Source of the DNA: Nemertoderma westbladi | Lineage: Eukaryota; Animalia; Xenacoelomorpha | Direction of reading: 5' to 3' | NCBI GenBank assembly: GCA_032718475.1 | Contig: JAUCBJ010001005.1 | Location: forward strand, 10,751 to 74,750 | Length of the DNA stretch: 64,000 bases | Shown here: one piece after another, positions 3,077 to 58,662 of the stretch | Layout of the letters: the number at the start of each line of letters is the position of its first letter | Numbering within the stretch: position 1 is the first letter of the stretch | The notes under the pieces: model-generated | Databases searched by the model: none | Seen by the model: the letters and a program-made list of their open reading frames with translations, nothing else | Told to the model about the DNA's origin: nothing | Translations under genes and position numbers: made by a program

Positions 3077-3099
3077 CGTGGCAAGGAAGGTTGTGAGTC

Positions 3100-5143: not shown

Positions 5144-5159
5144 TCAAAGTGGACGGGAC

Positions 5160-6780: not shown

Positions 6781-6829
6781 CAGGTTAAACTGTTAAAGGT
6801 CTAAAAGCGCGAACAAAATGTTTGAAAGA

Positions 6830-23266: not shown

Positions 23267-23344
23267 CCGCTCCCAGAAAATGGGATTTAAGTCTATAAAA
23301 TATAAAAAATCACAGTTTCTAAAATACAAAAATACTCTAAACTA

Positions 23345-27101: not shown

Positions 27102-28865
27102 GGCTGCTATATGAGTTTATAGATATTATAATTAATAATAATTAGGCTAGCGGTTGTCGCTGCCTCCCCCTCAGTGCCCCCGGACAGCGCAAGATCCTCA
27201 GCGCTATGTACTGTCGTCGCTGTGCCTCTCGCCAATGTAGTAGCTACACAACGACAACAATAACCAGCGCGAGTCACTCCACTGTCCATCCCAAGGGCTT
27301 AGATTTACTGGAGGTTCTTGCTACAGACAACTGCGACTCGCTACTGTAAACACACTTTAGTAGTAACATTCACCTATAAATACACAAATTCCACACTCCT
27401 GTCACAATTTGTACAAATTCGGGCCATTTGTCCGTTAGTCAAATGCCTTCCAGAATGCCACGTTATTATTATGTATCCCTGGATACTAGCAAGGTGCTAT
27501 TTATTCCGCATGCTATTCAATGGGGCAAGCTTTCTATTGTTCTTTTAACTCGCTTCTAATTCTAGCGTGGTTGTTGCTATGGTGACATTATGGAAAGCTA
27601 GCGGTAGAATTAGGGTAATTCTCATGCATACAGATCTGGGATGCTATTTAATAGTGATTCTTTAATTGTCAATATTCCCCTTATACATGATTTTATGAAT
27701 TTTATCGGCTATTGTCTGTACACTGGAGATTCTCGCACACTAATATACTTAATAGGGTGAATCTCCGCTCCCATGATCTATTAATTAATGGAATTTTGGG
27801 AATGTTATAAATTGTATAAAATGACAATTTATCAAATTCATGAGAGGATATGAATTTAAAATTTATTCCCGTGAATTTTATTATTTGATATTAAATAGAC
27901 ACAATTTTATTCCAGAACATGTCTGGGAACTAGGATCCTTAATTCTAGAAATTTTGTCTTTTAAGAGTATCGGTAAGTGCTACGATATCCTAATCGACTA
28001 GAATTTTAGAGGATCTAAATTTTAACAGATTTTGATTTATAGATTTTCTAGAGTCAATTTGTTAGTATTTACTCTATTGTAACATTTGTTTTAACAGATT
28101 TTATAAATATTTATTAAATATTTAATATTTAAGATGGGCACCGATTTCTTCCAGAACATGTCTGGGGACGTTAACCACTGATTCTAGAATTTTGTCTTTC
28201 AAGTATATCGGTGGGTGCCGCGATATCTTAATCGACTAGAATTTCAGATGGTCAAAGGGTTTAACAGATTTATTTGAAGATTCATTAACAGATTTGTTTG
28301 ATAACATTATTAATATTAATAATGTTTGTTAATATTTTTGAACTTCAATGCTACTGTTAAATGGACATCATTCTACTATATGTATTATTTAATATACGGT
28401 ATGAGAGCAATATTGCAAGAAGCAATGTCAGTGAGAAGAGGCAAGTCGTTTCCAAGGTCTACCCAGAGCTTGGTTTAGCCGAGACACAAGGATCCGAACT
28501 TTGCATTCCTAATACTCTACATACCAATAATACTTGAGTATAGTAGGGGCGGTATTGTACTTTTAATATGTACGGACATTTCATCTTACTGTAGTCACAT
28601 ATTTATAGTATGATACGGACAGTAAGGAAAGAGAAAATGAATTATTTCTCGCCGTTAAACGAAATATATTATGCTAAGTAATTAAGTAATAAGACACTGA
28701 TATATTGCACTAATCTACTGAATAATTGTTAAAATATTATTCTACAAAATAAAATTAAAGAAAACGATTTTAATAATAAAATTACATATATAATAATGCA
28801 TACATAAATATAAAATAATAAAAAAAATATAAAATAATGAAGTCACACACCCACTCCAAACGCTA

Positions 28866-31800
28866 TTACGTTGGGGAGTCCCTAGATGTTTGTTGGATTA
28901 GGGAGGTGGTCGTGGGAAGAGTCTCTTGCCTTCCACAGTTCCCGGACAACTCTCGGTCTCTTTCCAGTAAACATAAACGACCAACTGGGCGATTAAGTTG
29001 TTGTGTTTCGAATACAATTCCAGGTTTCTTAACGTTACGTCGCATGACGATGAGTTCCACCGATCGCACTAAACCATCATCGGATATATGAGTCTCGATG
29101 ATACGGCCTGTCTGCCACCTCTTACGTGGAAGATCTGATTCCACGATAAGGACCATGTCTCCGGCGCTGACGTTTTCTTGTGCGCAAACCACTTTGTTTG
29201 AAGTTGTAGCGTAGGAAGATAATGTTTTTCGAAATGGTCAGCGAAACGACGGGATAATAACTGCATAAGTTGCCAAGTTTGTCGGCAGTATTAGTCTCCG
29301 TCTGTGAATTCCTATTGCGGGAGCATGGCTACAGGTTTCTTTAGTAGGAAATGCGCGGGTGTTAGCTCTTCTAGGCAGTCGGGACTCGATGAGACTGGCA
29401 TAAGCGGTCTCTCATTAAGATAGGCGGCGATTTCTTCCATTAACGTCCGCAAAAGTTCGTCGGTGATATAAAGTGAAATGCGGTCTTCACGCTCTGTATT
29501 AGTCTCTCCCAACTTCCTCCCCACCAAGGGGCGTCGGCGGCGTTGAAGGTCCAGCTAGATGCTGTTACCCTTAGCTGATCGTCCACCTGTCTTTGGTTCC
29601 AATCTTTCACGTAAGCTGTGATCTCATCATTGGCGCCAATGAAGTTCGTTCCTTTGTCGGATCTCATAGTGTTGCTAGTCCCAAAACGAGCGATCTGTCG
29701 GCGTAAACTCAGTATGAAGCTGTTGGTAGATAGATCGTTCACCATATCTAGATGGATCGCTCTACAAGTCATACAGATAAAGATGACACACCATCGCTTG
29801 ACTATAGTCCTAGCACGATATACTTCAATAGGGCCAAATAAATCCACACCAGTATTAGTAAATGGTGGTTCATAGAAGCTTACTCGTTCCCTAGGTAATT
29901 CTGCCTCTCGCTGTGTTAAAGGCCTACTAAATGCTTTCCTACAGGGTATACAGTTCCTAAGAACTTGGTTAAGAGCTCTATGGGGCTTATGGAAATAATA
30001 GCGAGTTCGAATTTCGCTAAGAACTCATTCTCTACCATCATGGTAAAGTCTACTGTGAACATCTACAATCATCTTGATTTGTATTTCAAGATTTCTAATG
30101 AGTATGGGAAACTTAGTGTCAAAGGACAATGGAGCATTAGTTAATCTCCCTCCGACACGTATTAACCCATCTATCATTGTGCTAGAGAAACGATCCCTTA
30201 AGCGCATCTGTGGATTTCTCAACAACAGGAAATACTTATCGGAATCTTCGTAGCACTGCAGGAGTCTCAGTATCTGCTTATTGGTATCCTCATGTTCTTG
30301 GTAACTGATCTTCTCAGTCAGACACCTATCAGACACTTTATAAGTGGGAAGGTCTTTAATAATATGGACTTTTTCGGATATTATTGGAGCGGTATCACTA
30401 GCGATCTTCATCCTGGAATAGTGATGATGTAAACATCTTTTCAGATACACAATGGCCTTGCTAAGCCGATTCCAGGAGCTATAATGATCTATTGCTCTCT
30501 GTAGGAGAGGGGAGAGTCCTTGCGAGACATCTGGTGTTCCAGATTTCCAGTCTCTTTCCCTGATTTCTATAACGGATCTAGTCGTAATGGGTGAGTTTAG
30601 ATCCACAGCGTCGTCCCCGGAGGTGTGTAGTACAGACAGATCTATCACGGGTTTAAATAACTTTGATTTACTCGTCTGGGTTTTAGGTTTGACTTTCTCC
30701 GCTCCCTTGTCTTGTCTAATCTCCGCTGTGGTGAGATGAGGGGGCCATTCCAACGCTTCTTTACTCAGGAAGTCGGGTCCATCTAACCAGTCTGGAGTAT
30801 CTATCAGTTCTTGAGGAGTTGCTCCTCTAGAGGCGATGTCAGCTGGATTAATCGTCCCAGGGCAATGTCTCCATTGATCTACATTAGAGCGACTGAGTAT
30901 AATGGCTACTCTGTTGGAAACGAAGACGCTGAACTGACAGACTTCATTTGTTATATACTCCAGAACGAGTAAAGCATCAGTCCAATAGACAGTTCTCTCT
31001 AGTGGATAGTCGATCTGTTCTGTTACATTCCAGCCGATGGCTGTAGCGTATAGAACCGCCTTTAACTCCGCTCTAGGAACTCGTAGTTTGTTGTTTATTA
31101 GGGCCTTAGAGGCGACCAAGGCAACTTTAATTCCATCCGGAGTTTCAATCCTCAGGTAGGCTACTATACCTATTCCCCTATCGCTGGCGTCTCCAAACAC
31201 ATGGAGTTGATAGGAATACGTGGGGAGAACGTGACCAAAATATGAACGGGAAATCTTAAAGTTTTCGATGGATGGTAGAGAATCTTCCCATTTCATCCAC
31301 TTCTTTAGCAGTTCTCCCGTAAGTGGATCATCCCACGAGTGGTTTTCGAGCCACATTTATTGCACTAAGCTCCAAGCAACTAATATAACTGGGCTAATAA
31401 ACCCCAATGGATCGAAGTAAGTGTTCAGGATACTTAGACAAATCCGTTTAGTTCTAACTGGATTATCTCGTTTTAACTGAAAGAATAGGATATCTCTCTC
31501 TGTGTCCCATTTTAATCCAAGCGTCTTGGTTTCCGGAAGATTGTCCTTAATGAGGTCCAGATCTTTAACACCTCGGTCTTCTACCGGAATCGATTCCAGA
31601 AACTCACGGGAGTTACTAGGGAATTTGGTTAGCCGAAATCCACCGCATTGCAAGCACTCTACCGTTCCCTTGGCAACATCAATGGCTTCTTCCACCAATG
31701 GGAGGGACTTTAAATTGTCGTCCATGTATATATCCCGTTTGATGTTGTCGATAACCGCTTTAGAGAAGGCGTCTCGGTTGTCATCAGCAGTGGTACGCAC

Positions 31801-34800
31801 TACCAAACAATGAGGGGCTCGAGATGATCCCGAAAGCCTGGATGGTCATCCAGTACTCCACCGGTTTTTGGTTGAGGTCTCCTTCAGGCCACCACAGAAA
31901 TCGTAGGCTGTCTCGATCCCTATCCAGCGCCTTGACTTGTAAGAACATGCCTTCTATGTCCGAAGCGAATGCGATAGAATATTGCCGCAGTCTTAGTAAT
32001 ATTCCCAACAAAGATTGGAGTAAGTTGGGTCCCGGCAACAGTTCTGAATTTAGGGATTGACCCATGTAAAGGGCGGAGCCGTCAAACACTACCCGGACTT
32101 TGTTGGGTTTACCGGGCTTGGGAACGTAATGATGTGTTAGATAATACGTTCTCTCCATTATGGGTGTTTCTTCTGGAACTCGCTCCACGTATCCCTTATC
32201 AATAAATTTCTTCAGTTGGGTTTTATACATTTCCCTGGCTTGAACGTTAGCCGTCAGGCGCCGATGTAGTTGTGTGATTCTCTTTTCCGCTAAAGGTCTG
32301 TTATTTACGAAGCTGTGTTCTCGCCGTCGAAACGGAAGACCAATCTCATAGCGACCTTCATCCTTCAGATAACGTGTAGTCATTTCCTGAATCTACTTGG
32401 CTCTCTCTTCCTCGACAGACAAGGCTTTGTCGTAGGAATTAGGCTCTACAGCTTCTTGAGTAAGGAATCGTACAGCGTGTTCATCGCGGATTTTGTTATT
32501 GTATCGATCTATCACTTCGTTTAATTCATCGTTATAGGTATATTGTCCGCCAGGTTGATTGACAAGATGGCATAGGTTGACTTGGTTTAACCAAGTTTGG
32601 TTCTCAGTGAGGAGATCGATGGTATTTTCCTCATCATACAAGTGGTTGATGTCGTCGTTGTCTGAGGAGTATGGAGTTTCCTCAGTTGGGGTTTCTTCCT
32701 CACTGATTTCTTCTTCCCATTCACTCACCTGGTGTATTCTTTCATGAGGGAGTCTTTCCATTAAGGTCCTATGGGAAGGTCCAGTGAAGTACCAACCTAC
32801 TCTCGTTCTTCCCGCATACATCTGTCCCAGCGAGTTGTTTGTCCCAGCGAGTACCTACTCCACCCTTTGGCAAAGTAGATGCTACGGCTCCAACAACCAT
32901 ATAACTCTGGTATTCTTGAGACTTACCTAACCAATCTAACTGTCTACAGATCTCCTGAATCTCATCAGAAAATTCTATAATCGCGCTGCTAAGAAACGTT
33001 CGGGGCGCTACTAATTTCGCATACAGATACCTAGCTATGTTAGTCCTATTATCATACCTCATGTTTAGTGTATCCCAAACTTGTCTTAATCCGTCTGGAT
33101 GTCCAATAAACTTTAACGCCATTAACTTGGGAGGTCCTTCCAAGCACTCGATGAGGAATCGAAGTTTCTCTCCATTGGATAGTACAGAGTTCTGTATGTT
33201 ATCTTTATAATATTCATCCGGTTCGATTCATCGGTTCTAGCCATTTGACGCATAAAACTTTCTTGGGCCATCATATTATTTAATATCGAGTTATCGGTAT
33301 ATAAATTTCTCGGATTAGGATCAGGTCTATATGGAATATTGTTATCAACAGGTTTATAATTACCCTTAATAGGGTTCACTATAGGAGTTTCTACTTCACT
33401 AGCAGTATAGATGCGTGTAGGCTCCACACCTTGCGCATGAAATACTTCAGACCTAACTGGCTGACACATTGTTACAGGGGGTTACCATATTTGTTACCAT
33501 TTTGTTACCATATTTGTTAACATTTTATTTCATACCCATTTGTATATTTACTAATTTATCGCGCTCTAAAGCCATACTTTGTTGTACTTCTTGCAACTCT
33601 AACCTACTCTCTCTTACTGTTCCCTTTAACAGCTGAACAGTCCCTTCCAATTCACGGACCTGCTGGGAAGACTGATTCTTGTGGGCTTCCAGCTGTCCGA
33701 GCAGCTGATTCATCCCCTGTCGTCCCTCGTCCACCCACTCAACCGCAGAGGCGGGAGCCGCCAACATGGTAGCTGGGTGGCATATAGGGACGACGGGAGA
33801 CAGTTTATTTATAATGTCTTGCTCGGCGTCCAGGACTGTGTTGGATTCCGGGGGTTGTCTACTGGGCACAGGTAGTTTAGTACTGTGCAAAGGGAATTTG
33901 GAGTTAGGTTCTGGAAGTACAGGGGTCTCTATCAAGGGAGTGGCTTCAATAACAGGCCTAATTATTTCGGGCTCGTCTACTATAGTAGGGAGTCTTTCTA
34001 CTCTAATAATTTGGTCTGTAGGCTCTTGATTACTTAAATCTACATTAGCTAGTTGCCTTCTCACCGCAGGAGGCAAATTAGGTAACTTCTGCCAGTGTGG
34101 CGTTCCTCTACGTCCGCTTGAACGAGATTGATTACCTTTACCCTCGGGATCCATTGTATCACCGTCATCAGAGGAGGTAAATCCCTGTCTTCTGGGAGTA
34201 GATCGACTCAGTAGTTGAATCTGAGTAGCTGCCCTTTGTTTATTTAAGTAATCTTGTTTCGCCTGAAGATTTTCCAACTCTAGTTGGGTTGTCGCTTCAG
34301 ATACCTTCCGTTCTGCTTCTGCCACTGCCGCTTTTCTTTCAGCCTCTGCTGCTGCCGCCACCACTGCCGCTTTTCTTTCAGATTCTGCCGCTGCTGCTGC
34401 CACTTTTCTTTCAGATTCTGCCGCTGCCGCTGACCTTCGGTCTTCTATTTGCCTTTTCTTAATTTGCTCTTCTTGGTCCATAGCGATGAGGATGCTTTCA
34501 TCAAATTTAGCCTGTTCTGCAGCTAATATTTCCGCATCTAAAGAATCTAACACGAATTTGCCTCCCTCTCTATTGGGATGAAGTCCAGCTAGCTGTCTTC
34601 TGAGCTCTTTGTCTCCTATAAATCGTTGATAATCCGATAAATAGATGTCAATCGTATCCTTCTTCTGAGGTTTTTCGGATATCGCTTCGCCTTCCACATG
34701 AGAAAAGGTGGCGTCTGTTGATTCTCCGTGGGTCATGCGCTCAGTTAGCTGAACTTTCCATTGTGTCGTTCCCTGGACCTTAACACTCACTCGTTGGAAC

Positions 34801-35611
34801 CAAGTCTTTACAGCCACTTGCAACGACGTGTCTTGGCTTCTCTTCGAGGCCTCCTCAAAGGCTGAAAGGATTAATCTGATCCGTAAGATACGTTCTCGCA
34901 CTTGATAAAGCAGCTCTCCCTGCTCTTGAGGTCCTTGACGTTGTTGAAATAAATGTTCTTCTAATCGCTCCAAGGAGCTGAAGAATCCCTGGACATATCC
35001 TGCTGCTGACCTCTTCCATATAGCTGGATCTCGAGTGTCCCTTACTATCCCCATTCGGTATATGTCCTCCCAGGCAGCTTCCGATAAATTAAACGGGAGT
35101 CCGGGTCCGGGGAAGTTCTATTGTGTCTCTACAATATACCTTAGTTCCTCCATCGTATGTCCCGCTTAACTGTCCCTGGTCGATCTCTTATTTCTCATCC
35201 AATCAGCTTGATGTTCCTCCACAACGATCAATACTCTAGTGAGTACGGCCCCAGGAAGAATTAGAAGTGGATCTGGATAAACTGCTTCTGCCATCCTTGC
35301 TCCGATCTCGGGCGTTAACTCTTCAGTGTCGGAACTACTAGAGTTATTCTGCCATTGAGAAATAAGTTCCTGGCTCGGGTGCTGCTGCTGCTAACAGCCG
35401 TCTCTTGGTCTCGCTTAACTTGAGCCCTAGTGCCTATAATAGACCTATGATGCTTTACTAGCCTAGAGTCTGATACCACTACTGTAGGGATGACCTTTCT
35501 TACAGTAGGAGGGGACTTGGACTTTGGTCTGAGATGTTCAATACTTTGATCTGGGTCACAGATCGTTCTTTCTAGGAGACTATCTGACAGTGTTTGCTTT
35601 GTGTCAGACAT
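28866..35611 (-). pseudogene. E1 gag-pol, fragmented; zinc knuckles and protease deleted at ~32825
   Basis: RVVFDGS, SDIEGMFLQV, YMDD, LHVFGDAS, VYWTDA, NPADIASRG, DLFGP, SDKGTNF, GGSWERLI; colinear with E2. Confidence 0.95.
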
Positions 35612-37239
35612 GATTTATTTTACAGTTGAATGCCTACTACTATAATGACAGTTAAAGCAAGTCTAGGAATCAGTATCAACTGTCAGCCTAGTAGTTATTT
35701 ACTGATACCGTTACTCAGTGTAACGTGATATATATTTAATATTAAACTACCGGTATACACTTATAGTATATATATAAGTATTATTTACAGACTAGGATCA
35801 GTCACAGAATACCGGCATATACTTTCAGCCTAAATTTATATAAATATAATAAGCTTACCGTAAATACCGGTAATGTCAATTATTTAATAATAACTGAATT
35901 TCTGAAATTTAGGGTTACTTCCCTTTACTTTATTACTGATATTAAGCAGTAGTTCAACTGATATTAAGACCTATTTGATGTATGACAGGCCTACTATTTT
36001 ATAAATCTGATTGAGTTGATTTATAATTATAAATATATACCCGTACAATGGGTTTTGATTATATTTGAAATAAATGTTATTATTTCTGGATAAGAAGTCA
36101 CTACACAGAAGCTAAACGCTCTCAGTGGAGTGCTACTTGTTAGACACTAATACTGATAATTCTAATTTACTAAGTTACTTATCACTACAAATTACTTACA
36201 ATCAGGTTGAGATTACAATCTCTAAATAAACAGTAAACAAGTTACACGTACAATTTTTTAGGGTAATTTTACAAGAAATCTACAAACCAGTCTAACAAGG
36301 AGTTAGAATTTCTGGTTCTTACAAACTGACAGGAAACTACGGTAGTTGAAACCAATAAAGTAGTAGTAAGTAAGTTGCGTTTTCCAGATAAGGAAATGCC
36401 ACCGTCTGACGACTTATAGTTTTAAACTATAAGTTATGTACCTGGAGTGTCCTTACCTAGAGGTTAATTATCGAAGCCAACCAGAGCTAACGTACCTATT
36501 AACCACGTTACAACACAAATATACTGCCTACACACTAAATTACTTTTGGAAAGCACTGTACGCTAAACCCTAAATTAGGTACAAGTACTTATACAACAAA
36601 TAACCAGCAGTTAAATATACGTGAATAGCCAAAAGAACCACGGTATCTGCTGGAGTGACCGGAGCACAAAGTCACCAGTCTTTACCTATGCCAAGCAGCC
36701 CTGATGTAGTACCGGGGTTAATTTAACTATAACAGTATGTATAACAAGCACAATTACTGTAGGAATAAACTTGGGGAATTGGAGGTTGCGAATACTCGCA
36801 TAAACTCTGAATAATAAATATTACGCTACCCGTGCAGACTATTCAAACAAAACACAGACCAAATGCTGGCAGACTACTGTCAAGCCTAAATAAATAGTAT
36901 ATGCAGACTCTGAAATGGTTAGTTAGTAGGCGTTCTAACCAAGTAGTACGACTTATTCTTTCGGGGGGGATTTACCTTACAGCACTGGATGCCCCCACCT
37001 TCCTAACTAGCACTTTATCGGACAGACACTCTTCACACACCGCAATCGCCTCAGACCTAACAACAGTTAGACAACAATCCGGCCTACAAATTATTTATAC
37101 AATCTGAGCAGGCTTACGTGCCTTCTGCTCAATATTACACTTACAGATAAATAAAACTGACAGAAATATATATGCTCTAAAAGAAATAAGGGGTGTACAG
37201 TCCCTACTCTCTTAAACAGCCTACTAATATACAATATTG

Positions 37240-37333
37240 AGAGTAGCGCCCACCCCTACCCTCGGGTAGCAGCTATCGAAAGAGGAGCCTTCGGGTCGCC
37301 TCCGGCTTCGGCCGACTGTTTGCTTGCTTGCTT
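37240..37333 (+). mobile_element. 5'-truncated SINE family 1 tail inserted in the E1 leader
   Basis: Near-identical to 10892-10985; absent from the homologous E2 leader (~39840). Confidence 0.85.
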
Positions 37334-37451
37334 ATCACAATCGAAATAATACTGCTGTACCTGTAAGTACTGGTTTGGGTGATTAGGCCTACAGTTTTAC
37401 TGTCTGACTGGTACATTCGACTTTATTGTCTACGGCACAATAAAGAAACCC

Positions 37452-37463
37452 TAAATCTATTAA
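37452..37463 (-). promoter_or_regulatory. E1 non-tRNA primer-binding site candidate TTAATAGATTTA
   Basis: First 12 nt after the 5' LTR CA; exact complement of its own LTR sequence at 38232-38243 (and 22911-22922). Confidence 0.7.
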
Positions 37464-38420
37464 TGTTCGCGCTTTTAGACCTTTAGCAGTTTAACCTGCC
37501 AATTTTAGTTGTCCCCTTGTTTATAAATCGACTTTAGCCTTTTACCAATTACCTAGTGTACTGAAGTTACATCAGCCAAAGCCAGTCCGTGCGCGGCGTA
37601 TGACCCACGGTGTGGGAGACTGGATTCGGATTCCTTGGGAGTTATTGCAGTGTAGACCTACTGTATTATTCGATTGATCGCTACTATATAATCTCTGACA
37701 ACTATATTCACTTTCGGGGAAATATTAACAGTTCCTTTAGGATGTGGCGCTTTAAGTATAAAAACAGAGTTATGACTTATACTAATCACAACTAGATGGC
37801 CACAGAGTTTCGTAAATAGCGCATTCTTTAGGAGATGCTTTATTAACCTTCACACTACTTCACACGACTTCACACTACTTTACACTAGTTCGCACTAATC
37901 TGCCGACCGTCACTGAATTTGATCATATATAAGGAGGATCTCAACTGACACACGTAGGGATTATGAAATAGCATTTAATTCACACAAAACCACTATAATT
38001 TAAGTCGCAGTTGCTACCAGTAAACTCTATTCCTCTTACCTCAGTAATCAATAAGATTGAGGGGTTTATGATTATTTATTGGTATTCTCCAAATATAACA
38101 TCAATATCCATTAATATAACAATTAATACTATAAACAGAAGTAAATAATGCGGTGAACAGTCAGTATGTGTTACTTATGCAGTTATGAAATGTTCAGTGG
38201 TGCGTCAAATAAGTTGAAATGTGATCAAATGTTAATAGATTTACGTTCTTATAACCAAGGCCATCTGATGTTCCTAGGCCAAAGTCTGAAACTTCCGCAC
38301 AGAAGCACAGAAAATTCTGAGTTGGTTCTGATGCTCAGAAAATAGTAAACAAAGACCGTAATGCATTGCGTGAGTTTCCATAGGTTTCTGTTAGCTGTAA
38401 AGTGAAAATTGCTCTGATTG
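37464..38420 (-). repeat. 5' LTR of E1, downstream part (remainder at 58663-58833)
   Basis: Near-identical to 22145-23099 and interrupted by E2 at GATTG. Confidence 0.95.
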
Positions 38421-39614
38421 TGTAAAAGCTTTTGCGGATATACTCAGTCCCCCTCGACCGCAAGGTACCGTTATAGGTGTTTTAACGGACATAAAAGTCA
38501 TTCTTCTATATGTGTGCTTTGGTGGACATGGTAAGGCAAAAAACCCGCAATGCGTCAAATACCCTGGCACAGCTTAGCCTTGATGATTCAGATTACGACA
38601 TCTAACAGCTGGTTGCTGACATGGAAACAGCCATTGGACACATGGTTCTTTGTTTAGCTTAACAGCCAATCAGAGCGATTTTTTCTGTCGATGTGGAGAT
38701 TTTTGGCAGATCATGCTAGGAGTGTTCAGTCTTACTGTTTTTCTTGATACTGTTGTGTTGTTTCTATCTAGGCCAGGAACACCGGCTCTAGAGTCAATTC
38801 GTTTCAGACTTTAGAAGAAACATTAGTAGGCTTAAGATTATAGAGCGTATAACTGTTATCTTAACATATCATATCACATACCATAACAATCACTTGTCAT
38901 ATCATATCTTAACCTACCGTCTTAATGCTTTTACTGTTGTCATATTTTGTATCAGTTAGTTGAATATTATTTGGAGAACATTTATAAAGAACCCAAATTT
39001 CCCAATTTTCTTGATACACTACAGGTTAGAGAGACAGGTTACATATAGCGATTGCGACTTACATTATTGTGGTTTGTAGTGAATTTAATGCTATTTGATA
39101 AGCCCTACATGAGTCAGTTGCTGTTCTCTTTATATATGATAAAATTCATTGACGGTCGGCAAATTAGTGAGCAGTATTGTGTGTTACTGGTAGTGCGCAT
39201 GATTGTGACTGATAACTAAGCATTTCCTAAAGAATGCGCCTCATACGTGAATCATAAGACTTACCGACTTACCGTTGTGATTAGTATAAGTCATATCTCT
39301 GTTTACCTAGATAGAGCGCCACGTCCTAAAGGAACTGTTAATATTTCCCGAAAGTGAATAATATTAGTCAGAAATTATTTATTAACGATCAATCGAATAA
39401 TACAGTAAGCTTACACTGCAATAATAATCTAAGCCCTCAGAATCCAGTCTCCCAGGTATATCCAGCGGGTGAATGGACACGCACTAGGCTGGCTTCTGCT
39501 AATGTTGTGTTTATTGGTATTAAATATTTGTCAATTTCTAAAGTCTATTTATAAACTAAAAGACATATAAATTTTGGCAGGTTAAACTGCTAAAGGTCTT
39601 CAAAAGCGCGTACA
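38421..39614 (+). repeat. 5' LTR of E2
   Basis: TGTAAAAGCTTTTGCGG...AAAAGCGCGTACA; direct repeat of 57464-58657. Confidence 0.97.
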
Positions 39615-39625
39615 ATAACAGTTAT
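39615..39625 (+). promoter_or_regulatory. E2 non-tRNA primer-binding site candidate ATAACAGTTAT
   Basis: First 11 nt after the 5' LTR CA; exact complement of ATAACTGTTAT at 38849-38859 (and 57892-57902). Confidence 0.7.
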
Positions 39626-41849
39626 TGACTTTATTGCAGTAAGCAATAAAGTTGAAAGTACCGGTCGACCGGTAAACCTGAACCGGTACTTCTGTAGGTC
39701 AGTAGGCCCAACTGCCAGAACCGGTACTGCTGTAGTTCCGTAGGTCCAACTGCCAGAACCGGTACTTCTGTAGGTCCATAGGCCCAACTGTCCTAACCGG
39801 TACTTCCAGTATAAGTACATTAGTATTATTCGATTTTGATTATTGTATACCGGTAGGTCTCGATATTAAATCGGGGACGCCTGGTTTTTATTGGGATTTT
39901 ACTTAGGTCTATTTCTGTCAGTTTTATTTCCTAGTAAGTTAATATTGAGCTGAAGACGTGTAAGTCTGCTCAGATTGTTCAGATAACTGTAGGCCGGACT
40001 GTTGTCGGATTGTTGTTGGGTTTGGAGAGATTACGGCGTGTGTAGAGTTTGTCTGATAAAGTGCCAGTTAGTAAGTTGGGCCAGCCATAGCTGTAAGGTC
40101 AATCCCCTCTTAAAGAATAAGTTGTACTACCGTGTTAGAACGCATACTAACTAACCATTTTGGAATCTGCACATACTGTAGTTTATTTAGGCTTGACAGT
40201 ATTCTGCCAGCGTTTTGGCCTGTGTTTGTTTGTGTGGTCTGTTCAGGTACCGTAATAGTTATTACTCAGATATTTTGTAGGCTGGATTGTTGTCTAGCTA
40301 TTATTAGGTCTGAAGAGATTGCTGCGTGTATAGAGTTTGTCTGATAAAGTGCCAGTTAGTAAGTTGGGGCAGCCATAGCTGTAAGGTCAATCCCCTCTTA
40401 AAGAATAAGTCGTACTACCGTGTTAGAACGCATACTAACTAACCATTTCGGAATCTGCACATACGGTAGTTTATTTAGGCTTGGTGGTAGTCTGCCAGCA
40501 TTTGGTTTGTATTTTGTTTGAGTAATCTGTACGGGTAGCGTAATATTTATTATTCAGAGTTTATGCGATTATTCGCAACATTCATGTCCCCAAGTTTATT
40601 CCTACAGTAATTGTGCTTGTTATACATACCGTTATAGTTAAATTAACCCCGGTACTACACGGACTGCTTGGCGTAGGAAAAGACTGGTGACTTTGTGCTC
40701 TGGTCACTCCAGCAGATGCCGTGGTTCTTTTAACTGTTCAAGTATATTTAACTACTGATTATTTGTTGTACCAGTACTTGTACCTAATTTAGGGTTTAGT
40801 GTACAGTGCTTTCCGAAAGTAATTAGTGTGTAGGCAGTATATTTGTGTTGTAAAGTGGTTAATAGGCACGTTGGATCTGGTAGTCCGCGGTAATTAACTT
40901 CTAGGTAGGAACACTCCGTGATACATATCGTAGTACCTATAGCGATACGGCTATAGGTCGTCAGGCGGTGGAATCTTCCTATCTGGACAGTGCAATATAT
41001 TTACTACTACTTATTATTTTAAAAAACCGTAGTACCCTGTCCGTTGTAATAATCAGAATCCTAACCCTTTATTAGGCTGGTTTGTAGACTTCCTGTGAAA
41101 TTACCCTAAAAATTTCGTACGTAATATTTTGTTGTGTTTAATTAGAGATTTAATCTCACCTTTATCGTAAGTAATTTGCAGTATTAAGTAACTTAGGTAA
41201 ATTAGAATTATCTGTTTTAGTGTCCATTAAATAGCACTTCACTGAGAGCGCACAGCTTCTGTGTAGTGACCCCCCAGAAATAATAACATTTATTTCAAAT
41301 ATTGACAAAACCCCCTTTAAACGGGTATATAAATATTATAAATCAACTCAAACGATTTATAAATAGTAGGCCTGCCATACAATAACTAGGTCTCAATATC
41401 GGTTGGACTACTGCTTAAATAACGGTAATAAAGTAAGTTAAAGTAACCAAGTAACCCCAAAATATTCAGAAATTCAATTATTCTAAAATAATTGACATAC
41501 CGGTATTTACCATAGGCTTATTATATTTATTTCTATAAATTTGAACTAAAATCATACCGGTATTCTGTAATTAATTCTAGTTTATAATTATACTTATATA
41601 TACTATAAGTGTAAGCTGCATACCTGTATTCACGATAGGCCTATTATATATTTATATATATTTGTCCTAAAATTATATACCGGTATTCTGAGACAAACCT
41701 AGTTTACAATACTTATATATATTATAAGTGTATACCGGTATTCTAATATACTGTAATAAATTAACGGTACTAGGCCAACGGTCATACTGAATTACTAGAC
41801 TTGCTTTAACGGTAACTATAGCAGTAGGCATTCAACCGTATAGCTAAAC

Positions 41850-44800
41850 ATGTCTGACACCCAGCAAAACCTGTCAGACAGTCTAATCGATACAACCATC
41901 TGTGACACAGATAGGAGTGTGGAGCGATTAAGAAAGGAGTTCAGCTCACCTCCTACTGAAAGAAAGGTCATCCCTCCAGTAGTAGTATCCGACCCTAAGC
42001 TAATCCAACACCGTAGGTCCATCATCGGCACTCGGGCCCAGGTCAAACGGAACCAGGAAGCAGCTGTCCAACAGCAGCAACATCCTAGTCAAGAAACTTG
42101 TTCCCAGCGATCCGATAGCTCCAGTAGTTCGGATACTGTAGAGCTGACCCCGAACGCGGAGTGCAGATGGCGGCTACAGCCTACTCGGATCCCCTTCTCA
42201 CCCTTCCTGCCGCAGTGCTAACTACTATATTGATTGCGGTGGAGGAACATCAAGCCGATTGGGCGAGAAGTAAGTGAGCGACCCAAGATAATTATGCGGG
42301 ATACGCCAGGGAAGAATTGATGTCTATTGTCGAGTCACAATGGAACTTTCCCGGACCCGGACTTCCATTAGATTTGTCCGAAGCTACTTGGGAAGATATA
42401 CACAGGATGGGAGTGGCTAAAGATACGATGGATCCAGCTGTTTGGAAGAGGTCGGCAGCAGGATATGTGCAGGGATTCTTCAGCTCCTTAGAGCGATTGG
42501 AAGAACAATTGTTTCGACAACCCCAAGGACCTCAAGAGCAGGAAGAGCTGCTTTATCAAGTACGCGAAAGAACCCTACGCATTAGACTAATCCTATCAGC
42601 CTTTGAGGAAACTTCCAAAAGAAGACAGGACACGTTGCTGCAGGTTGCTGTCAAGACTTGGTTCCAGCGGGTAGGTCTCAAAGTTCAAGAAACGGCCCAG
42701 TGGAAATCCCAGCTGACTGAGTGACCAACCTATGAAGAACCAACCGATACTACCCTTTCTCAAATAGAAAGCGAAGAGACACCAGCAGAGCAGCCGCCCT
42801 CGAGAGACGCCATAGACATCTATCTGTCAGACTATCATCGATTCCTAGGAGACAAAGAGTTGAGGAGACGACTGTCTGGACTTCGCCCTAATAGTGAAGG
42901 AACCAAGCTTGTGTTGGACGCAATCGATGCGTAAATGTTAGCTGCAAACCAAGCTAAATTTGATGAAAAACTCCGCCTCGCTAGAGTCCAAGAAGAACAA
43001 GTAAAGAAAAAACGGATAGAGGACCGAAAGGCAGCAGCAGTAACGGCGGCAGAAGCAGAAGCAGCAAAGGCAGCGGCAGCGACAGAAGCAGAAGCAGCAA
43101 AGGCAGCGGCAGCGGCAGAAGCAGAAGCAACAAAGGCAGCGGCAGCAGCAGAAGCAGAAAGAAAGGCAGCGGTGGCAAAAGCAGAACTGAGAGCGTCTGA
43201 GGAGACTACCCAACTAGAGTTGGAAAATCTGCAAGAGACGCAAGACAACATAAATAAACAGTTAACTGCTAGTCACATGCAGATGATGCGAAGATCTACT
43301 CCCAAACGCCAGGGATATACATCATCGGAGGAAAGCGAAACCACCGATCCTGAAGGCGGAGGAAATAGATCTCGTCTAAGCAGGCGTAGAAAAACATCTT
43401 ACCGTCACAAATTGCCTGATTTGCCCCCAGCTGTTAGAAGGCAACTAGCTAGCACAGACTTAAGTAGTATAGAACCTACAGACCAAATTATTAAGGTCAA
43501 AAAACTCCCTACTATAGTTGATGAGCCTGAAATAATTAGGCCTGTCGTTCCCAAAGTCACTCCTGTGCTAGAGACCCCTGTACTTCCAGAGCTTAACTCT
43601 AAATTCCCTTTACACAGTACTACACTGCCTGTACCCGGTAGAACAGTCCATGAGAATATCCCTGTCCTGGAAGCTGAGAGAGAAATCAAAGATTTGTCTC
43701 CTGTCGTCCCGCGTCAGCCCACTACAATGTTGGCGACTCCCGCTTCGGCGGTCGAGTGGGTAGAGGAGGGACGGCGGGGGATGAATCTCCTGCTCGGACA
43801 GATGCAGGAGACTGTCCACCAACTTAAGGGAACCGTAAGGGAAGGTAGGGCAGAATTGCAAGAAGTGCAGCTAAGTATCGCGCTAGAACGCGACAAATTA
43901 GTCAATATACAAAATGGTATACCAATACCCCCTGTAAAATTGTGTCAACCTGTTAGGTCTGAAGTATTACATGCGCAAGGTGTTGAGCCTACACGCATCT
44001 ATACTGCTAGTGAAGTAGAAACTCCTGTAGCAAACCCTATTAAGGTTGATTATAGACCTGTTGTTAATGATATTCCCTATAGACCTGATAATGATCCGAG
44101 AAATTTATACACCGATAATTCGATATTAAATAACACGATGGCCAAGAAAGCTTTACGCGTCAGATGGCTAGAACAGAAGCCCGCCAAGCGGTCAAAGTGG
44201 GAGAGATCGTCAAATTCAATGGAGATGAGATGAAATGGTTACCTTTCAACGAATATTACAAAGACAGCATACAGAACTCTGTGCTATCTAACGGAGAGAA
44301 ACTTAGGTTCCTCATCAAGTGCTTGGAAGGACCTCCCAAGTTAATGGCGTTAAAGTTTATTGGACATCCAGAAGGATTAAGACAAGTTTGGGATACATTA
44401 AACATCAGGTATGGTAACAAGGATAACATAGCTAAGTATTTGTATGCAAAATTAGTAGCCCCCCGAAACTTCCTTAGTAGCGGGATTATAGAGTTTTCCG
44501 ATGAGATTCAGGAGATCTGTAGACAATTGGACTGGTTAGGTAAGTCTCATGAATATCAGAGTTCCATGGTTATTGGAGCCGTAGTCTCTACTTGACCAAA
44601 GGGTGGAGTATGTACCCGTTGGGACAAGAAAGTGTTGTACATGAATGAACAGCAACGACGAAGCCCTACCATGACTGATCTCATGTCCTTCTTAGATGGT
44701 GAAGTGAAACTACAACTCATCAAGCAGTCCAGAGAAAAAACATCGGAAAATAAGGTAAGTGAGAAACCCGTTTCTAGGAGAAGAGTCACACCAGTGTGTT

Positions 44801-47800
44801 ACACTGACGACGGCGAAACCCAAGCTTCTCAAGAAGAGGACAGCGGGAAAGACACTGACAAATTTTACTACGTTAACAAAACCCCAAAAGACGTAAGTAA
44901 ATATAAGGCTCGAACCAACGATAGGAGAGAACAGGTTGCCAAGACCCCTCCTCAGTCTCCTAACAGAATGCACGGAAGAAAGCCCGAAGAAAGAACGAGA
45001 GTGCATCAGGTTACCCAAGGTAAAGTGAGTAACATAAAACCTAACTGTGCTCTGTGCGACGGGACCCACCGTTTGAGTGCGTGTGCTGAATTTCTAAAGA
45101 AATCTCTTGTAGACAGACGTGCAGTCGTGTGGGATAAGCGGTTATGCTATAATTGCCTCAGACCAGGACACCAACGGCGAACCTGTTACTCCGACGTAAA
45201 GTGTGCAAAGTGTAGCGCGAAACATCACATCTTGTTACACAGTGAGTTCGAACGAGACAACCCGAGTCAGGTAAGTGAGCCCGAACTACATGTCCAATTC
45301 AGTGATGTAAATGACACTGATCAAGAATCTGAGATGGAAGGATTCTATACTGACGAATTCTCCGACGCCAACGAATCCTGTTATCTAATCAATACCGCGG
45401 TGTATCGAGCACTTACTTATGAAAAGGACACCAACAATGAGTTTCCCCCAACTACTTTTGCCAGACAACCATCGTGGAAAGCTCCAACTTCCAACGTAGG
45501 AATCAGAGAATTTCCTGTAGTGCAGGTAAGAGTTCATGGTCCTAACAAAAGTTACATAGTGAACGCACTCCTTGACTCCGGCAGCACAGGAACATTCATC
45601 GATCAAGAACTAGCCGAAGATATCTTTGCTGGACAACCCAAATTCCGGACTAAATTGAATATGTCAGGAATTATGCAGGTTTGGAAATCTACCCTAACGG
45701 CAGATTACTATGTAGGTGTGTTGTCCACCCCCCAGGATAAATTAGGAGCACAAGGGATAAGGTCGGTAAAAATGGTGGCTATAAAGAACTTCGCTAATAC
45801 CCAAGCAGACCTTTATAATTGGGACGAGGATGAGAGCATCCAACATCTTAAGATACCTCGATTCCAGACAGATTATCCTGGAGTGCAAATACTCATCGGC
45901 CAAAACGCGCATGAGGCGCTCGAGACATTGGAGAAACGGCCTGCTCAACCGCAGCCACTGCAAACCTATGCGGTAAGAACTAGAGTAGGTTGGTACTTTA
46001 CTGGCCCTTCCCGCAGGACTCTCGAAGAGAGAATGCCACAAGAACGAATATACCAAGTAAACGATTGGGAAGTGGAGAGCAGTGAGGTGGACGAACTAAC
46101 TGAGGGAACACCATACTCCTCAGATAATGACGACATCTACCAGCTCTTCGATGAAGAGAACACAATCGACCTACTTACAGAAAACCAAACTTGGAAAAAT
46201 CAGGTGAACCTATGTCAACTGATTCGCCCATCGGAACCCATTGCTTACAATGACGAACTAAACGATGAGATAGAGCGCTACAACGCTAGAACTCGGGACG
46301 AACTAGCCGTACGATTCTTTACTCAAGAACTGGTAGAGCCCAATTCATACGATAAGGCTCTATCGATAGAAGAAGAAAGAGCCAAGCAAATCCAGGAAAC
46401 AACTACACGTTTTTTAAAGGACCAAGGTAGATATGAAATCGGCCTACCATTTCGAAAACGAGAACCTAGATTTATAAATAACAGACCCTTGGCAGAGAAA
46501 AGAATCGCTCAATTGCATCAACGCCTTACGGCTAATGCTTCAGCCAAAGAAATGTACCAAACTCAGCTGAAGAAATTTATAACAAAGGGATACGCGGAGT
46601 GAGTACCGGAAGGAACACCAGTGACTGAGAGAACGTATTACTTAACACATCATTACGTTCCCAAACCCGGTAAACCCCATGAAGTACGAGTCGTATTCGA
46701 TGGCTCCGCGCTATATATGGGCCAATCCCTCAATTCCGACTTGTTACCAGGACCCAACTTACTCCAATCTTTGTTGGGAATACTTTTAAGATTAAGACAA
46801 TATTCCATCGCGTTCGCCTCCGATATAGAAGGAATGTTCTTACAAGTCAAGGCGCTGGATAGAGATAGAGACAGCCTGAGATTTCTGTGGTGGCCTGAAG
46901 GAGACCTCAATCAGAAACCTGTAGAGTACTGGATGACCATCCAGGCTTTTGGGATCATATCTAGTCCTTCCAACGCCTGCTCCGTGGTGCGAACCACTGC
47001 GAATGACAACCGAGACTCCTTCTCAAAAGAGGTGATAGACAACATCAAGTGTAATATATACATGGACGATAATTTAAGGTCCCTTCCATCAGTAGAAGAA
47101 GCCATTGATGTCGCGAAAGGAACAGTAGAGTGTTTGAAAAGAGGTGGATTTCGACTGACGAAATTCACCAGCAACTCCCGTGAGTTTCTGGAAGCGATAC
47201 CAGTAGAAGACTGAGGAACGAAAGACCTAGACTTAATAAAGGACGATCTTCCTGAAACCAAGACGCTTGGCTTGAAGTGGGACACTGAAAGAGACATCCT
47301 GTTTTTTCAGTTAAAACAGCGAGATAATCCAGTTCGGACCAAACGGATTTGTTTAAGTATCCTGAGCACTTATTTCGACCCATTGGGATTTATTAGCCCA
47401 GTTATATTGATTGCTCGGAGTTTAGTACAACAAATGTGGCTTGAAAACCACTCATGGGACGATCCGCTCAAGGGAGAACTGTTAAAGAAATGGATGAAAT
47501 GGGAGGACTCTCTACCTGCCATCGAGAACTTTATAATTTCCCGTGCATATTTTGGTCATGTTCTTCCTACTTATTCCTATCAACTCCATGTGTTTGAAGA
47601 CGCCAGCGACATGGGAATAGGTATAGTGGCATATCTGCGAGTCGAAACTCCGGATGGAATCAAAGTCGCCTTGGTTACCTCTAAGGCATTGATCAACAAC
47701 AAGTTAAAGGTTCCTCGAGCGGAGTTAAAGGCGGCTTTATACGCTACAGCCATCGGCCGGAACGTAACAGAACAAATCGACTATCCACTGGAGAAAACGG

Positions 47801-49959
47801 TTTATAACGGTTATTTAAAACGGACCGACGCTTTACTCGTGTTGGAGTATCAAACCAATGAAGTCTGTCAGTTCAGCGTTTTTGTTACTAACAGGGTAGC
47901 TATTATTCTTAGTCGCACAAAGATAGATCAATGGAGACATTGCCCTGGTACGATTAACCCAGCCGATATCGCCTCCCGGGGAGCAACTCCACAGGAACTG
48001 ATAGATACTCCAGATTGGTTGGGTGGACCCGACTTCCTGAGCAAGGAAGAGGATAAATGGCCTCCTCACCTTACTACGGCGGAGATTAGACAAGCCAAGG
48101 GAGCGGAGACAGTCAAACCTAAAACCCGGGCGAGTAAATTGAAGTTATTTAAACCGACTATCGATCTATCTGTATTACATACTTCCGGGAATGATGCTTC
48201 GGATCCACAATCCCTCAACACAAATAAGGCTGTTGTGGAAATTAGAGGTAGAGACTGGAAATCTGGAATACCTGACATCTCGCACGGAATCTCACCCCTG
48301 CTGCAGCGAGCAATGCATCACTACAGTTCCTGGAATCGGCTCTGTAAAGCCGTTACGTATTTAAGGAGATGTTTTCATCATCACTACTCCAGGACAAAGA
48401 CCATTAGTGATATCGCTCCATTGACATCTGCACAAGTTCATGTTATTAAAAATTTACCCAAATATAAGACATCTGACCGTTTTCTAAAGGAGAAAATTAG
48501 TCACCAGGAGCATGAAGAAACCAATAAGCAGATACTGAGACTCCTGCAATGCTATGAGGATTCCGAAAAGTATTTCCTGTTGTTGAGAAATCCGCAGATG
48601 CGCTTAAGGGATCGATTCTCTAGCACAATGATAGATGGGTTAATACGTGTTGGAGGAAGGCTCACCAATGCGCCCTTATCCTTTGACACTAAATTCCCCA
48701 TACTTATTAGAAATCTTGAAGTACAAATCAAGATGATTGTAGATGTTCACAGTAAACTTTATCATGCTGGTAGAGAACGAGTTCTTAGCGAAATTCGAAC
48801 TCGCTATTATTTTGATAAACCCCGTAGAGCTCTGAACCAAGTTCTTAGGGACCGCATACCCTGTAGGAAAGCATTCAGTAGGCCTTTAACACAGCGAGAG
48901 GCAGAATTACCTAGGGAACGAGTAAGCTTCTATGAACCACCTTTTACTAATACTGGTGTAGATTTATTTGGCCCTATTGAAGTATATCGTGCTAGGACTA
49001 TAGTCAAGAGATGGTGTGTCATCTTTGTGTGCATGACTTGTAGAGCCATCCATCTCGATATGGTGAACGATCTATCTACCAACAGCTTCGTATTAAGTTT
49101 ACGCCGACAGATCGCTCGCTTCGGGACGAGTAATACCATGAGATCGGATAAGGGAACGAACTTCATTGGTGCCAACAACGAAATACAGGCTTACGTGAAG
49201 GATTGGAACCAAAGACAGGTGGACGATCAGCTAAGGATAACAGCATCTAGCTGGACCTTTGACGCCGCCGACGCCCCTTGGTGGGGAGGAAGTTGGGAGA
49301 GATTAATTAGAAGTGTCAAGACCGCATTTCACTTTATAGTGCCATGCCGTGCGTATCTCACTGACGAACTTTTGCGGACGTTAATGGAGGAAATAGCTGC
49401 CTATCTCAACGAGAGACCGCTTATGCCAGTCTCATCGAGTCCCGATTCCCTGGAAGCGCTAACACCCACGCACTTCCTACTGAAGAAACCTGTAGCCATG
49501 CTCCCACGATCGGAGATTGCCGACGGAGACGAATACTGCCGTCGAACTTGGCAACTTATGCAGTTGCTATCTCGTCGTTTTGCTGACCATTTCGAGAAAC
49601 ATTATCTGCCCACGCTACAACTTCGAACTAAGTGGTTTGCGCAGCAAGAAAACGTCAGCGCCGGAGATATGGTGCTTATTGTAGATCCAGACCTACCACG
49701 TAAACGGTGGCAGACAGGTCGTATCATCGAGACTCACATCTCGGATGATGGTTTAGTACGCTCGGTAGAACTCATTGTCATGCGGCGTAACTTCAAGAAG
49801 CCAGGCATAATCTTTGAGACGCAACAACTCAATTGCCCAGTTGGTCGTTTATGTTTACTGGAAAGAGACAGAGAACTCTCCGGAAACTATGGAAGGCAAG
49901 ACACTCTTCCCACGACCACCTCCCTAATTCCTCAAACATCTAGGGACTCCCCAACGTGA
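41850..49959 (+). pseudogene. E2 gag-pol polyprotein (~2700 codons, several stops and frameshifts)
   Basis: DUF1759-like FNGDEMKWLPF..EKLRFLIKCLEG; BEL knuckles CALCDGTHRLSAC / CYNCLRPGHQRRTC / CAKCSAKHHILLH; PR ALLDSGS; RT YMDD; RH LHVFEDAS; IN GVDLFGP / SDKGTNF / WERLIRSVK. Confidence 0.97.
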
Positions 49960-50418
49960 TACGTCTGGAGTGGGTGTATGACTATATCATTTTATCTATT
50001 TTATTATATTTTATACGTGAACATTATTATGTACTTTATTATAATCGTTTTTATTCAATTTTATTTAGTAGAACGTTATTTTAGATTATTTAGTAGGTTA
50101 GTGCAATATATTATTGTTTATTACGTAATTACATATATAATATATATTTAGTGTGACGGCGAGAAATAATTTTTCTCTTTCCTTACTGTCCGTATCATAT
50201 TATAAATACGTGACTACAGTAAGATGAAATGTCCGTACTTATTAAAGTACAATAAAGCCACTACTATATTTAAGTATTATTGGTAGGCAGAGTATTAGGA
50301 ATGCAAAGTTCAGATCCTCGTGTCTCGGCTAAACCAAGCTCTGGGTAGACCTTGGAAACGACTTGCCTCTTCACACTGACATTGCTTCGTGCGATATTGC
50401 TCTTCTACCTTATATTAA

Positions 50419-57385: not shown

Positions 57386-57454
57386 CTGTTTAGAGTATTT
57401 ACATATATTAGAAACTGTGATTTTTGTATATTTATAAACTTGAATCCCATTTTC

Positions 57455-57463
57455 TGGGAGCGG
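57455..57463 (+). promoter_or_regulatory. Short PPT-like tract TGGGAGCGG abutting the E2 3' LTR
   Basis: Same sequence and position in E1 (23267-23275, minus strand). Confidence 0.7.
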
Positions 57464-58657: not shown

Positions 58658-58662
58658 GATTG

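What the first reader, a model, noticed from the sequence alone, without database searches (positions are those of the whole stretch)
37452..39625. BEL/Pao elements lack a tRNA PBS and carry a covarying self-complementary primer site (candidate self-priming)
Seen: neither element has TGG within ~60 nt after its 5' LTR. In E2 the first 11 nt after the terminal CA (ATAACAGTTAT, 39615-39625) are the exact complement of LTR 38849-38859. In E1 the first 12 nt (TTAATAGATTTA, minus strand, 37463-37452) are the exact complement of LTR 38243-38232. The two LTR sites are homologous: both follow gtttcagacttt..ttata(a)ga..cg and lie ~760 nt from the LTR end. The sequences differ between elements, yet each pairs with its own partner, and pairing stops exactly at the LTR boundary where a primer 3' end must sit. 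Known: this geometry is that of S. pombe Tf1 self-priming (Gypsy Tf1/sushi group), where the first 11 nt of the RNA pair with the PBS and are released by RNase H. I know of no such report for BEL/Pao. Inference: tRNA-independent priming arose independently in this lineage. If the TSS lies further downstream, the partner would be in U3 at the RNA 3' end, implying a different mechanism. Caveat: both motifs are AT-rich and the E2 one is nearly palindromic.
Basis: partly seen in the sequence, partly recalled or inferred. Interest (0 to 1): 0.92.

Follow-up and report, generated by a model that had tools for sequence, protein, structure and literature searches.

The report
Self-priming BEL/Pao retrotransposon pair
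Two related jumping genes of the BEL/Pao kind, one nested inside the other, lack the usual tRNA landing site and instead carry 11 letters that pair exactly with a spot in their own terminal repeat, with four matched changes between them, so they likely start copying themselves with a piece of their own RNA, a trick described in other retrotransposon groups but not found in print for this one.

Summary
Observation confirmed. E2 (38421-58657, +) is inserted in the 5' LTR of its sister E1 (22145-58833, -); both are BEL/Pao by Pfam. Neither has TGG within 200 nt of the 5' LTR. In each, the first 11 nt after the terminal CA are the exact complement of a homologous LTR site about 770 nt upstream. 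The elements differ at 4 of 11 positions and all 4 changes are matched. Shuffles give such a match 37 and 29 times in 20,000. A scan for LTR-leader helices kept in both elements finds only this one and a second, covarying 6-bp U5-leader helix. Best reading: Tf1-like self-priming (about 0.7). Not shown: the transcription start. A weak TATA/initiator pair would put it about 10 nt past the partner, free folding does not form the duplex, and the evidence rests on two sister elements. ICTV describes Belpaoviridae as tRNA-primed, and my searches found no paper on BEL/Pao self-priming. This scan has already noted the same idea in at least three other genomes. Side lead: both elements carry an extra 3' ORF with an RNase D-like segment.

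The parts
38421..58657 (+). E2, BEL/Pao LTR retrotransposon, 20.2 kb, TG...CA, 5-bp target duplication GATTG, inserted into E1's 5' LTR; coding region broken by stops and frameshifts
38421..39614 (+). E2 5' LTR (1194 nt; 8 differences from the 3' LTR, none in the partner site)
57464..58657 (+). E2 3' LTR; carries the partner site at 57892-57902
38849..38859 (+). E2 partner site (candidate self-primer), after CGT
39615..39625 (+). E2 post-LTR site (candidate PBS), exact complement of 38849-38859
22145..58833 (-). E1, sister BEL/Pao element (about 16.4 kb without E2), target duplication GAGGT; 3' LTR 22145-23266; 5' LTR split by E2 into 58658-58833 and 37464-38420
38232..38243 (-). E1 partner site (12 nt; the 11 nt 38242-38232 are homologous to the E2 site)
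37452..37463 (-). E1 post-LTR site (candidate PBS), exact complement of 38243-38232
39409..39414 (+). E2 U5 arm of a second LTR-leader helix (pairs with 39639-39644); E1 counterpart 37657-37652 with 37433-37428; 6 bp, 2 two-sided changes
39574..39593 (+). U5 hairpin about 20 nt upstream of the PBS; same in E1 (37502-37483); kept in the third LTR with one two-sided and one one-sided change
   Evidence: z -3.8 and -2.8
39625..39655 (+). Leader hairpin directly after the PBS (E1: 37445-37421); its loop region holds the leader arm of the U5-leader helix
   Evidence: z -4.7 in E2, -1.6 in E1
38801..38812 (+). 12-nt block identical in both LTRs (E1 38292-38281), about 45 nt upstream of the partner; holds an initiator-like match, one candidate transcription start
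41850..49959 (+). E2 gag-pol in pieces: DUF1759, CCHC knuckles, protease motif, RT (YMDD), Peptidase_A17/RNase H region, integrase motifs, DUF5641
53117..57385 (+). E2 extra 3' ORF in pieces (E1: 23552-27116, -); no hydrophobic segment found; RNase D-like segment and C/H-rich knuckle-like motifs (lead only)

Best explanation
The 11 nt after the 5' LTR pair exactly with an 11-nt site in the same LTR, and this pairing likely serves as Tf1-like self-priming: the genomic RNA would begin at or shortly before the partner site and fold back onto the post-LTR site, and a cut after the 11th paired base, predicted to be made by the element's RNase H, would free the 3'-OH from which minus-strand DNA starts at the LTR's terminal CA. 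Shown: sequence, geometry, covariation and absence of a TGG site. Inferred: that the partner is in R, that the duplex forms in the particle (likely with nucleocapsid help, as free folding does not give it), that the U5 hairpin and U5-leader helix play the part of Tf1's flanking helices, and the cleaving enzyme. Copying of the primer during plus-strand synthesis could also keep the two sites matched (inference).
For: The partner's 3' end pairs with the first base after CA, the only register in which a primer copies the LTR end, and pairing ends there in both elements. 4 of 4 differences are two-sided; a rough figure for that under independent drift is 4-9 in a million. First TGG at +268 and +212, whereas the neighbouring Gypsy element starts its PBS with TGG and has only a 5-nt match to its own LTR. 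Only 2 Watson-Crick LTR-leader helices of 6 bp or more are kept in both elements, against 0 in a complemented control. Tf1 needs a central primer:PBS duplex plus flanking duplexes (bioRxiv 10.1101/2022.12.06.519325, passages). RT and RNase H-type acidic motifs are present in both elements. Forcing the duplex costs only 1.7 (E2) and 5.4 (E1) kcal/mol.
Against: No transcription start was observed. In E1 a TATA-like octamer (1 mismatch) at 38253 with an initiator-like match 31 nt on would start the RNA about 10 nt past the partner. E2 has the initiator-like match at the same spacing but a poor TATA (3 mismatches), and each LTR has 18 initiator-like matches, so this is weak. Partition-function folding of the roughly 1,070-nt predicted 5' RNA gives probability 0.0 for all 11 pairs in both elements. 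The duplex is weak (-10.1 and -7.9 kcal/mol) and R+U5 would be about 770 nt. The covarying U5-leader helix starts 13 nt (E2) and about 18 nt (E1) beyond the PBS, so a full Tf1 'pretzel' is not shown. Only two sister elements were compared; internal tRNA fragments could not be tested.
Confidence: 0.7

Rival explanations
1. The partner lies in U3, so it is transcribed only near the RNA 3' end. The pairing circularises the genome (5'-3' helix) or masks the site, and the primer is something else.
For: TATA-like plus initiator-like spacing in E1, weaker in E2. Long-range LTR-leader helices exist here. 5'-3' pairing near the PBS of Ty1 is recalled, not checked.
Against: It does not explain why pairing starts at the first base after CA in both elements, and it leaves the element with no primer site (no TGG in 200 nt).
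Confidence: 0.11
2. Self-priming, but from a 3' end. An RNA that ends in or past the partner (the U3 copy, a second genome copy, or a short transcript) anneals and is cut or trimmed back to the duplex, possibly by the RNase D-like segment of the extra ORF.
For: Same geometry and covariation. Both elements keep an extra ORF (91% identical over the aligned segment) with weak RNase D matches (E 0.004 and 0.029, far below curated cut-offs; Atlas 0.88 and 0.85, lead only).
Against: No AATAAA or ATTAAA lies near either partner, so it is not a poly(A) site. Cutting at the U3 copy in cis would remove the R needed for strand transfer (inference). The exonuclease is unproven: Pfam gave none and the model had pLDDT 30.
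Confidence: 0.13
3. A host small RNA or internal tRNA fragment primes, as with half-tRNA copia elements, and the LTR match is secondary.
For: Half-tRNA priming without TGG is described for some Ty1/copia lineages (PMC6317226, passages). Host tRNAs were not available to test.
Against: It needs two different host RNAs for two sister elements, and does not explain four matched changes in the LTR. Rfam finds no tRNA or snRNA likeness in 36800-40600 (1 weak 6S match at E 0.12).
Confidence: 0.04
4. Chance match of AT-rich, near-palindromic words.
For: AT-rich words; 13-nt LTR-leader matches that are not homologous between the elements also occur.
Against: Shuffle counts, the shared offset 0, homologous partner positions and 4 two-sided changes.
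Confidence: 0.02

Closest known systems
Tf1/Tf2 (S. pombe), Tj1, Tosmo and the Tf1/sushi group of chromoviruses (Metaviridae)
   Same: PBS directly after the LTR's CA is complementary to a segment of the element's own LTR; no tRNA site; flanking U5 and leader helices (PMC4600332, PMC5341516, 10.1101/2022.12.06.519325; passages).
   Different: This is a BEL/Pao element. The partner is about 770 nt from the LTR end, its place at the RNA 5' end is untested, and the flanking helix is not directly adjacent to the PBS.
Predicted self-priming plant lineages Tcn1 (Gypsy) and TAR (Copia)
   Same: Self-priming inferred from sequence alone; TAR shows the trait in a second superfamily (PMC6317226, passages).
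   Different: Plant hosts and other superfamilies; BEL/Pao would be a third.
Belpaoviridae (BEL/Pao, Semotivirus) as described by ICTV
   Same: LTRs, Gag-PR-RT-RH-IN order and family-specific Pfam domains.
   Different: ICTV gives an 18-nt tRNA-Arg/Gly PBS and 4.2-10 kb genomes (PMC8742986, whole text); Achilles has a tRNA-Tyr PBS (PMC4580426, passages). These elements are about 16 and 20 kb, lack such a PBS and carry an extra 3' ORF that does not look like env. Closest proteins are at most 34% identical over the near-full query, and the branch is long.
Fungal GalEa Copia elements (Conserved Hairpin Site in place of a PBS)
   Same: No tRNA PBS; a hairpin just after the 5' LTR (PMC5445492, passages).
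   Different: The authors report no complementary U5 sequence there; here an exact LTR partner exists.

Membership tests
BEL/Pao lineage (Belpaoviridae) | Two LTRs with TG...CA ends and a short target-site duplication | tested here: met
   both elements, 5-bp duplications
BEL/Pao lineage (Belpaoviridae) | BEL/Pao-type polyprotein (DUF1759, Peptidase_A17, DUF5641); all close hits of that type | tested here: met
   E 2.5e-13, 6.5e-34, 1.2e-19; 110 of 112 hits carry PF05380
BEL/Pao lineage (Belpaoviridae) | Domain order Gag(CCHC)-PR-RT-RH-IN | tested here: met
   (motif patterns recalled); read in E2, partly in E1
BEL/Pao lineage (Belpaoviridae) | Described trait: 18-nt PBS for a tRNA 3' end; tRNA-primed replication (ICTV profile) | tested here: not met
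   first TGG at +268 and +212; filed under the lineage by its proteins only, as a variant for this trait
BEL/Pao lineage (Belpaoviridae) | Described trait: genome 4.2-10 kb | tested here: not met
   20.2 kb and about 16.4 kb
BEL/Pao lineage (Belpaoviridae) | Placement in a named clade (Pao, BEL, Tas, Suzu, Sinbad, Dan, Flow) | tested here: inconclusive
   quick tree of E2 and 35 of the 112 hits: long branch, weak support, no named reference elements
Tf1/sushi group | Ty3/gypsy chromovirus polyprotein | tested here: not met
   BEL/Pao domains, no chromodomain hit; not a member
Tf1/sushi-type self-priming (works like) | PBS next to the LTR is the exact complement of an LTR segment, 3' end at the LTR boundary | tested here: met
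Tf1/sushi-type self-priming (works like) | The segment lies at the 5' end of the RNA | not testable with these tools
   only contigs were available, which show no RNA start; motif evidence is mixed
Tf1/sushi-type self-priming (works like) | Flanking duplexes on both sides of the PBS ('pretzel') | tested here: inconclusive
   one covarying U5-leader helix and a conserved U5 hairpin; short 4-6-bp pairings of the U5 end appear only in constrained folds and differ between elements
Tf1/sushi-type self-priming (works like) | RNase H cleaves the duplex to free the primer | not testable with these tools
   acidic motifs present; activity needs an assay

The most novel reading that the evidence does not exclude
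A deep BEL/Pao lineage has replaced tRNA priming with self-priming over a roughly 770-nt R-U5 loop. It chooses between a primer-bearing genomic start and a TATA-directed start just past the primer, and uses its own RNase D-like 3' ORF product to trim the primer back to the LTR boundary, which would be a primer-making route unlike Tf1's.
Probability: 0.08. Interest if true: 0.85.

Novelty: new variant of a known kind. Interest (0 to 1): 0.6.

Why it matters
The ICTV profile describes Belpaoviridae as primed by host tRNA. Self-priming is shown for Tf1 and predicted for its Gypsy relatives and one plant Copia lineage. A BEL/Pao case would add a third superfamily and sharpen the open question whether self-priming is ancestral (raised in PMC3601003, passage) or arose repeatedly. 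It would also mean that PBS finders which require a tRNA match miss such elements. The family has very high contig depth in its host's runs, so RNA start and primer should be easy to measure.

Tried and rejected
No host genome was held, so other full-length copies and host tRNAs could not be read. Relatives with DNA: metagenome contigs gave none by protein (0 of 17 candidates) or by a conserved LTR motif (0). Viral contigs gave 1 of 52 candidates, a locus with no repeat pair and no upstream DNA, then 0 of 11. Prokaryote genome contigs were not scanned. Sequencing runs: 7 listed, no RNA holder on record, all contigs. Four of them laid on 37200-39900 show a deep, diverse family; none of the 40 substitution rows shown (521 hidden) falls in the four sites, which is not evidence either way. 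A joint 37460/39629 in 3 of 4 runs hints at further junction types whose letters were not shown. Variants at the PBS junction in other copies therefore remain unread, and covariation rests on two elements. A third LTR (1-600 plus 6781-6815) has no leader after it, and its homology at the partner site is ambiguous, so the prediction noted stays untested. A splice-built primer (earlier notes) is not needed, since the partner is contiguous. A poly(A)-site primer is unsupported, with no signal near the partner. The extra ORF as envelope: no hydrophobic segment, no homologue, 1 weak one. Its model (pLDDT 30) was too poor for a fold search; PDB sequence searches gave nothing for the exonuclease-like part. 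Host group: the ALG13 segment is about 50% identical to birds, fish and molluscs alike, so uninformative. One search was an irrelevant scan.

Full report
Anatomy. Self-comparison of the window shows two large LTR elements head to head. E2 runs 38421-58657 on the plus strand, with 1194-nt LTRs that differ at 8 positions and a 5-bp target duplication (GATTG). It has landed inside the 5' LTR of E1 (22145-58833, minus strand; duplication GAGGT; 3' LTR 22145-23266). The two are sister subfamilies: about 83-85% identical over the long internal matches (73% in the gag region) and 68% over 1046 aligned LTR positions. Pfam finds DUF1759, Peptidase_A17 and DUF5641 in E2 and Peptidase_A17 in E1, and motif patterns (recalled) give the order CCHC, protease, RT, RNase H, integrase. 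They are BEL/Pao elements whose reading frames are broken by stops and frameshifts. The closest proteins are at most 34% identical over the near-full query. In a quick, unfinished tree of E2 with 35 of the 112 hits, E2 is a long, weakly placed branch, so I cannot name its clade.

The observation. It is exact. The first 11 nt after E2's terminal CA complement 38849-38859, and the first 12 nt after E1's complement 38243-38232. The sites are homologous (E2 LTR 429-439 maps to E1 LTR 346-356) and present in both LTRs of each element. The shared duplex is 11 bp. It differs at 4 positions between the elements and each difference is matched on the other strand (in that scan I fixed the first 11 leader columns on the LTR end, a register that the independent alignment also gives). 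The first TGG, which a tRNA 3' end requires, is at +268 and +212. As an in-window control, the Gypsy element at 601-6780 starts its PBS with TGG and has only a 5-nt match to its own LTR.

Chance. The complement appears in 37, 29 and 5 of 20,000 dinucleotide-shuffled LTRs (E2 11-mer, E1 11-mer, E1 12-mer). Of all internal 11-mers, 8 of 17,839 in E2 and 19 of 14,187 in E1 have a complement in their own LTR, and only offset 0 is shared. Scanning the whole LTR against the first 106 nt of leader for Watson-Crick helices of 6 bp or more kept in both elements returns two: this one (11 bp, 4 two-sided changes) and a U5-leader helix (39409-39414 with 39639-39644; 6 bp, 2 two-sided changes). A complemented control returns none. 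A U5 hairpin about 20 nt before the PBS (z -3.8 and -2.8) is kept in a third, more distant LTR with one two-sided change (sequence). Each partner pairs far better with its own site than with the other element's.

How it most likely works. The partner's 3' end pairs with the first base after the LTR, which is the register of a minus-strand primer, and pairing ends there. This is the arrangement described for Tf1, Tf2, Tj1 and Tosmo, where a self-primer from R pairs with the PBS, is cut free by the RT's RNase H and sits among flanking helices (passages of PMC5341516, PMC4600332 and bioRxiv 10.1101/2022.12.06.519325; the RNase H step is from the title of a reference listed). I put this at 0.7. 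Shown are the sequence relations; inferred are the RNA start, duplex formation and the cut.

Against it. No RNA start could be read. Three candidate starts exist: an initiator-like match in the 12-nt block conserved about 45 nt upstream, the A after CGT at the partner itself, and an initiator-like match about 10 nt past the partner, 31 nt from a TATA-like octamer in E1. The last would place the partner in U3. It is weak, since E2's octamer has three mismatches and each LTR has 18 initiator-like matches (consensus motifs recalled). Free folding of the predicted 5' RNA does not form the duplex (probability 0.0 in both), though forcing it costs only 1.7 and 5.4 kcal/mol in shorter fragments. R plus U5 would be about 770 nt. 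The covarying U5-leader helix is not directly adjacent to the PBS, so a full pretzel is not shown. There is no poly(A) signal near the partner. No third element with both sites was found, so covariation rests on one pair, and host tRNA fragments were not testable.

Extra ORF. Both elements carry a long 3' ORF with no hydrophobic segment. A 320-residue segment is 91% identical between them and weakly matches RNase D (E 0.004, far below the curated cut-off). The Atlas gives 3'-5' exonuclease clusters at 0.88 and 0.85, and one distant protein has a similar segment plus a zinc knuckle. Pfam gave no match for it in E2 and the model was unusable. It is a lead, and a link to priming is speculation.

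What is in print. The ICTV profile (PMC8742986, whole text) gives an 18-nt tRNA PBS and tRNA-primed replication for Belpaoviridae; Achilles has a tRNA-Tyr PBS (PMC4580426, passages). Self-priming is predicted for plant Tcn1 and TAR lineages (PMC6317226, passages). Searches that paired self-priming terms with BEL/Pao terms listed 0, 1, 5, 21 and 1 papers. In four of them I read the self-priming passages, and they concern Tf1, chromoviruses or Copia. The Tcn1 paper PMC2864245 and most's list I saw as listings only. Word searches in PMC554778, PMC3118150 and PMC2774666 found no mention of priming. A search for an exonuclease in BEL elements found 0 papers. Subscription papers, Repbase and GyDB entries, and all supplements were not seen and may bear on novelty. 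This scan's earlier notes report candidate BEL/Pao self-priming in at least three other genomes, with 5'-end, splice-built and poly(A)-site versions. They are unchecked leads and not counted as support; none matches this DNA.

Verdict. A real, covarying self-complementary primer site in a BEL/Pao lineage. It most likely works like Tf1 self-priming, and the element is not a member of the Tf1/sushi group. New variant of a known kind; interest 0.6.

Noticed in passing
window 53117-57385 (+) and 23552-27116 (-): Extra 3' ORF in both elements, not envelope-like; an RNase D/DEDD-like segment with weak matches, followed by C/H-rich knuckle-like motifs. By eye, one of the expected acidic residues seems replaced, so it may be inactive.
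   Followed up: partly
window 1-600 and 6781-6815: A third, more distant LTR of the same family, about 400 nt shorter in its middle, split by a Gypsy insertion and not followed by a leader.
   Followed up: partly
window 601-6780 (-): Gypsy-type element with 339-nt LTRs ending in CG...CG rather than TG...CA, an apparent 3-bp duplication (CAG) and an ordinary TGG-starting PBS from 6441 downward.
   Followed up: partly
window 57444-57463 and 23286-23267: The 20 nt before the 3' LTR are identical in E1 and E2; the purine run is short and is preceded by a possible small hairpin.
   Followed up: no
window 37241-37333, 10892-10984, about 12013-12135: A short self-complementary repeat inserted in E1's leader, with further copies in the window and high depth in the runs; possibly a MITE.
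   Followed up: no
window 39392-39403 with 39823-39834: A 12-13-bp U5-leader helix in E2; E1 has a similar leader sequence near 37350 with one extra base, by eye.
   Followed up: partly
window 50936-51755 and 59294-59569: Tandem arrays of about 162 nt (inside E2, between pol and the extra ORF) and about 63 nt (outside the elements).
   Followed up: no
window 15370-16113 (+): ALG13-like host coding segment covering most of the glycosyltransferase 28 C-terminal domain in one frame.
   Followed up: partly
window 7772-8122 and 14455-14772: A further pair of direct repeats 6.7 kb apart, possibly the LTRs of another decayed element.
   Followed up: no
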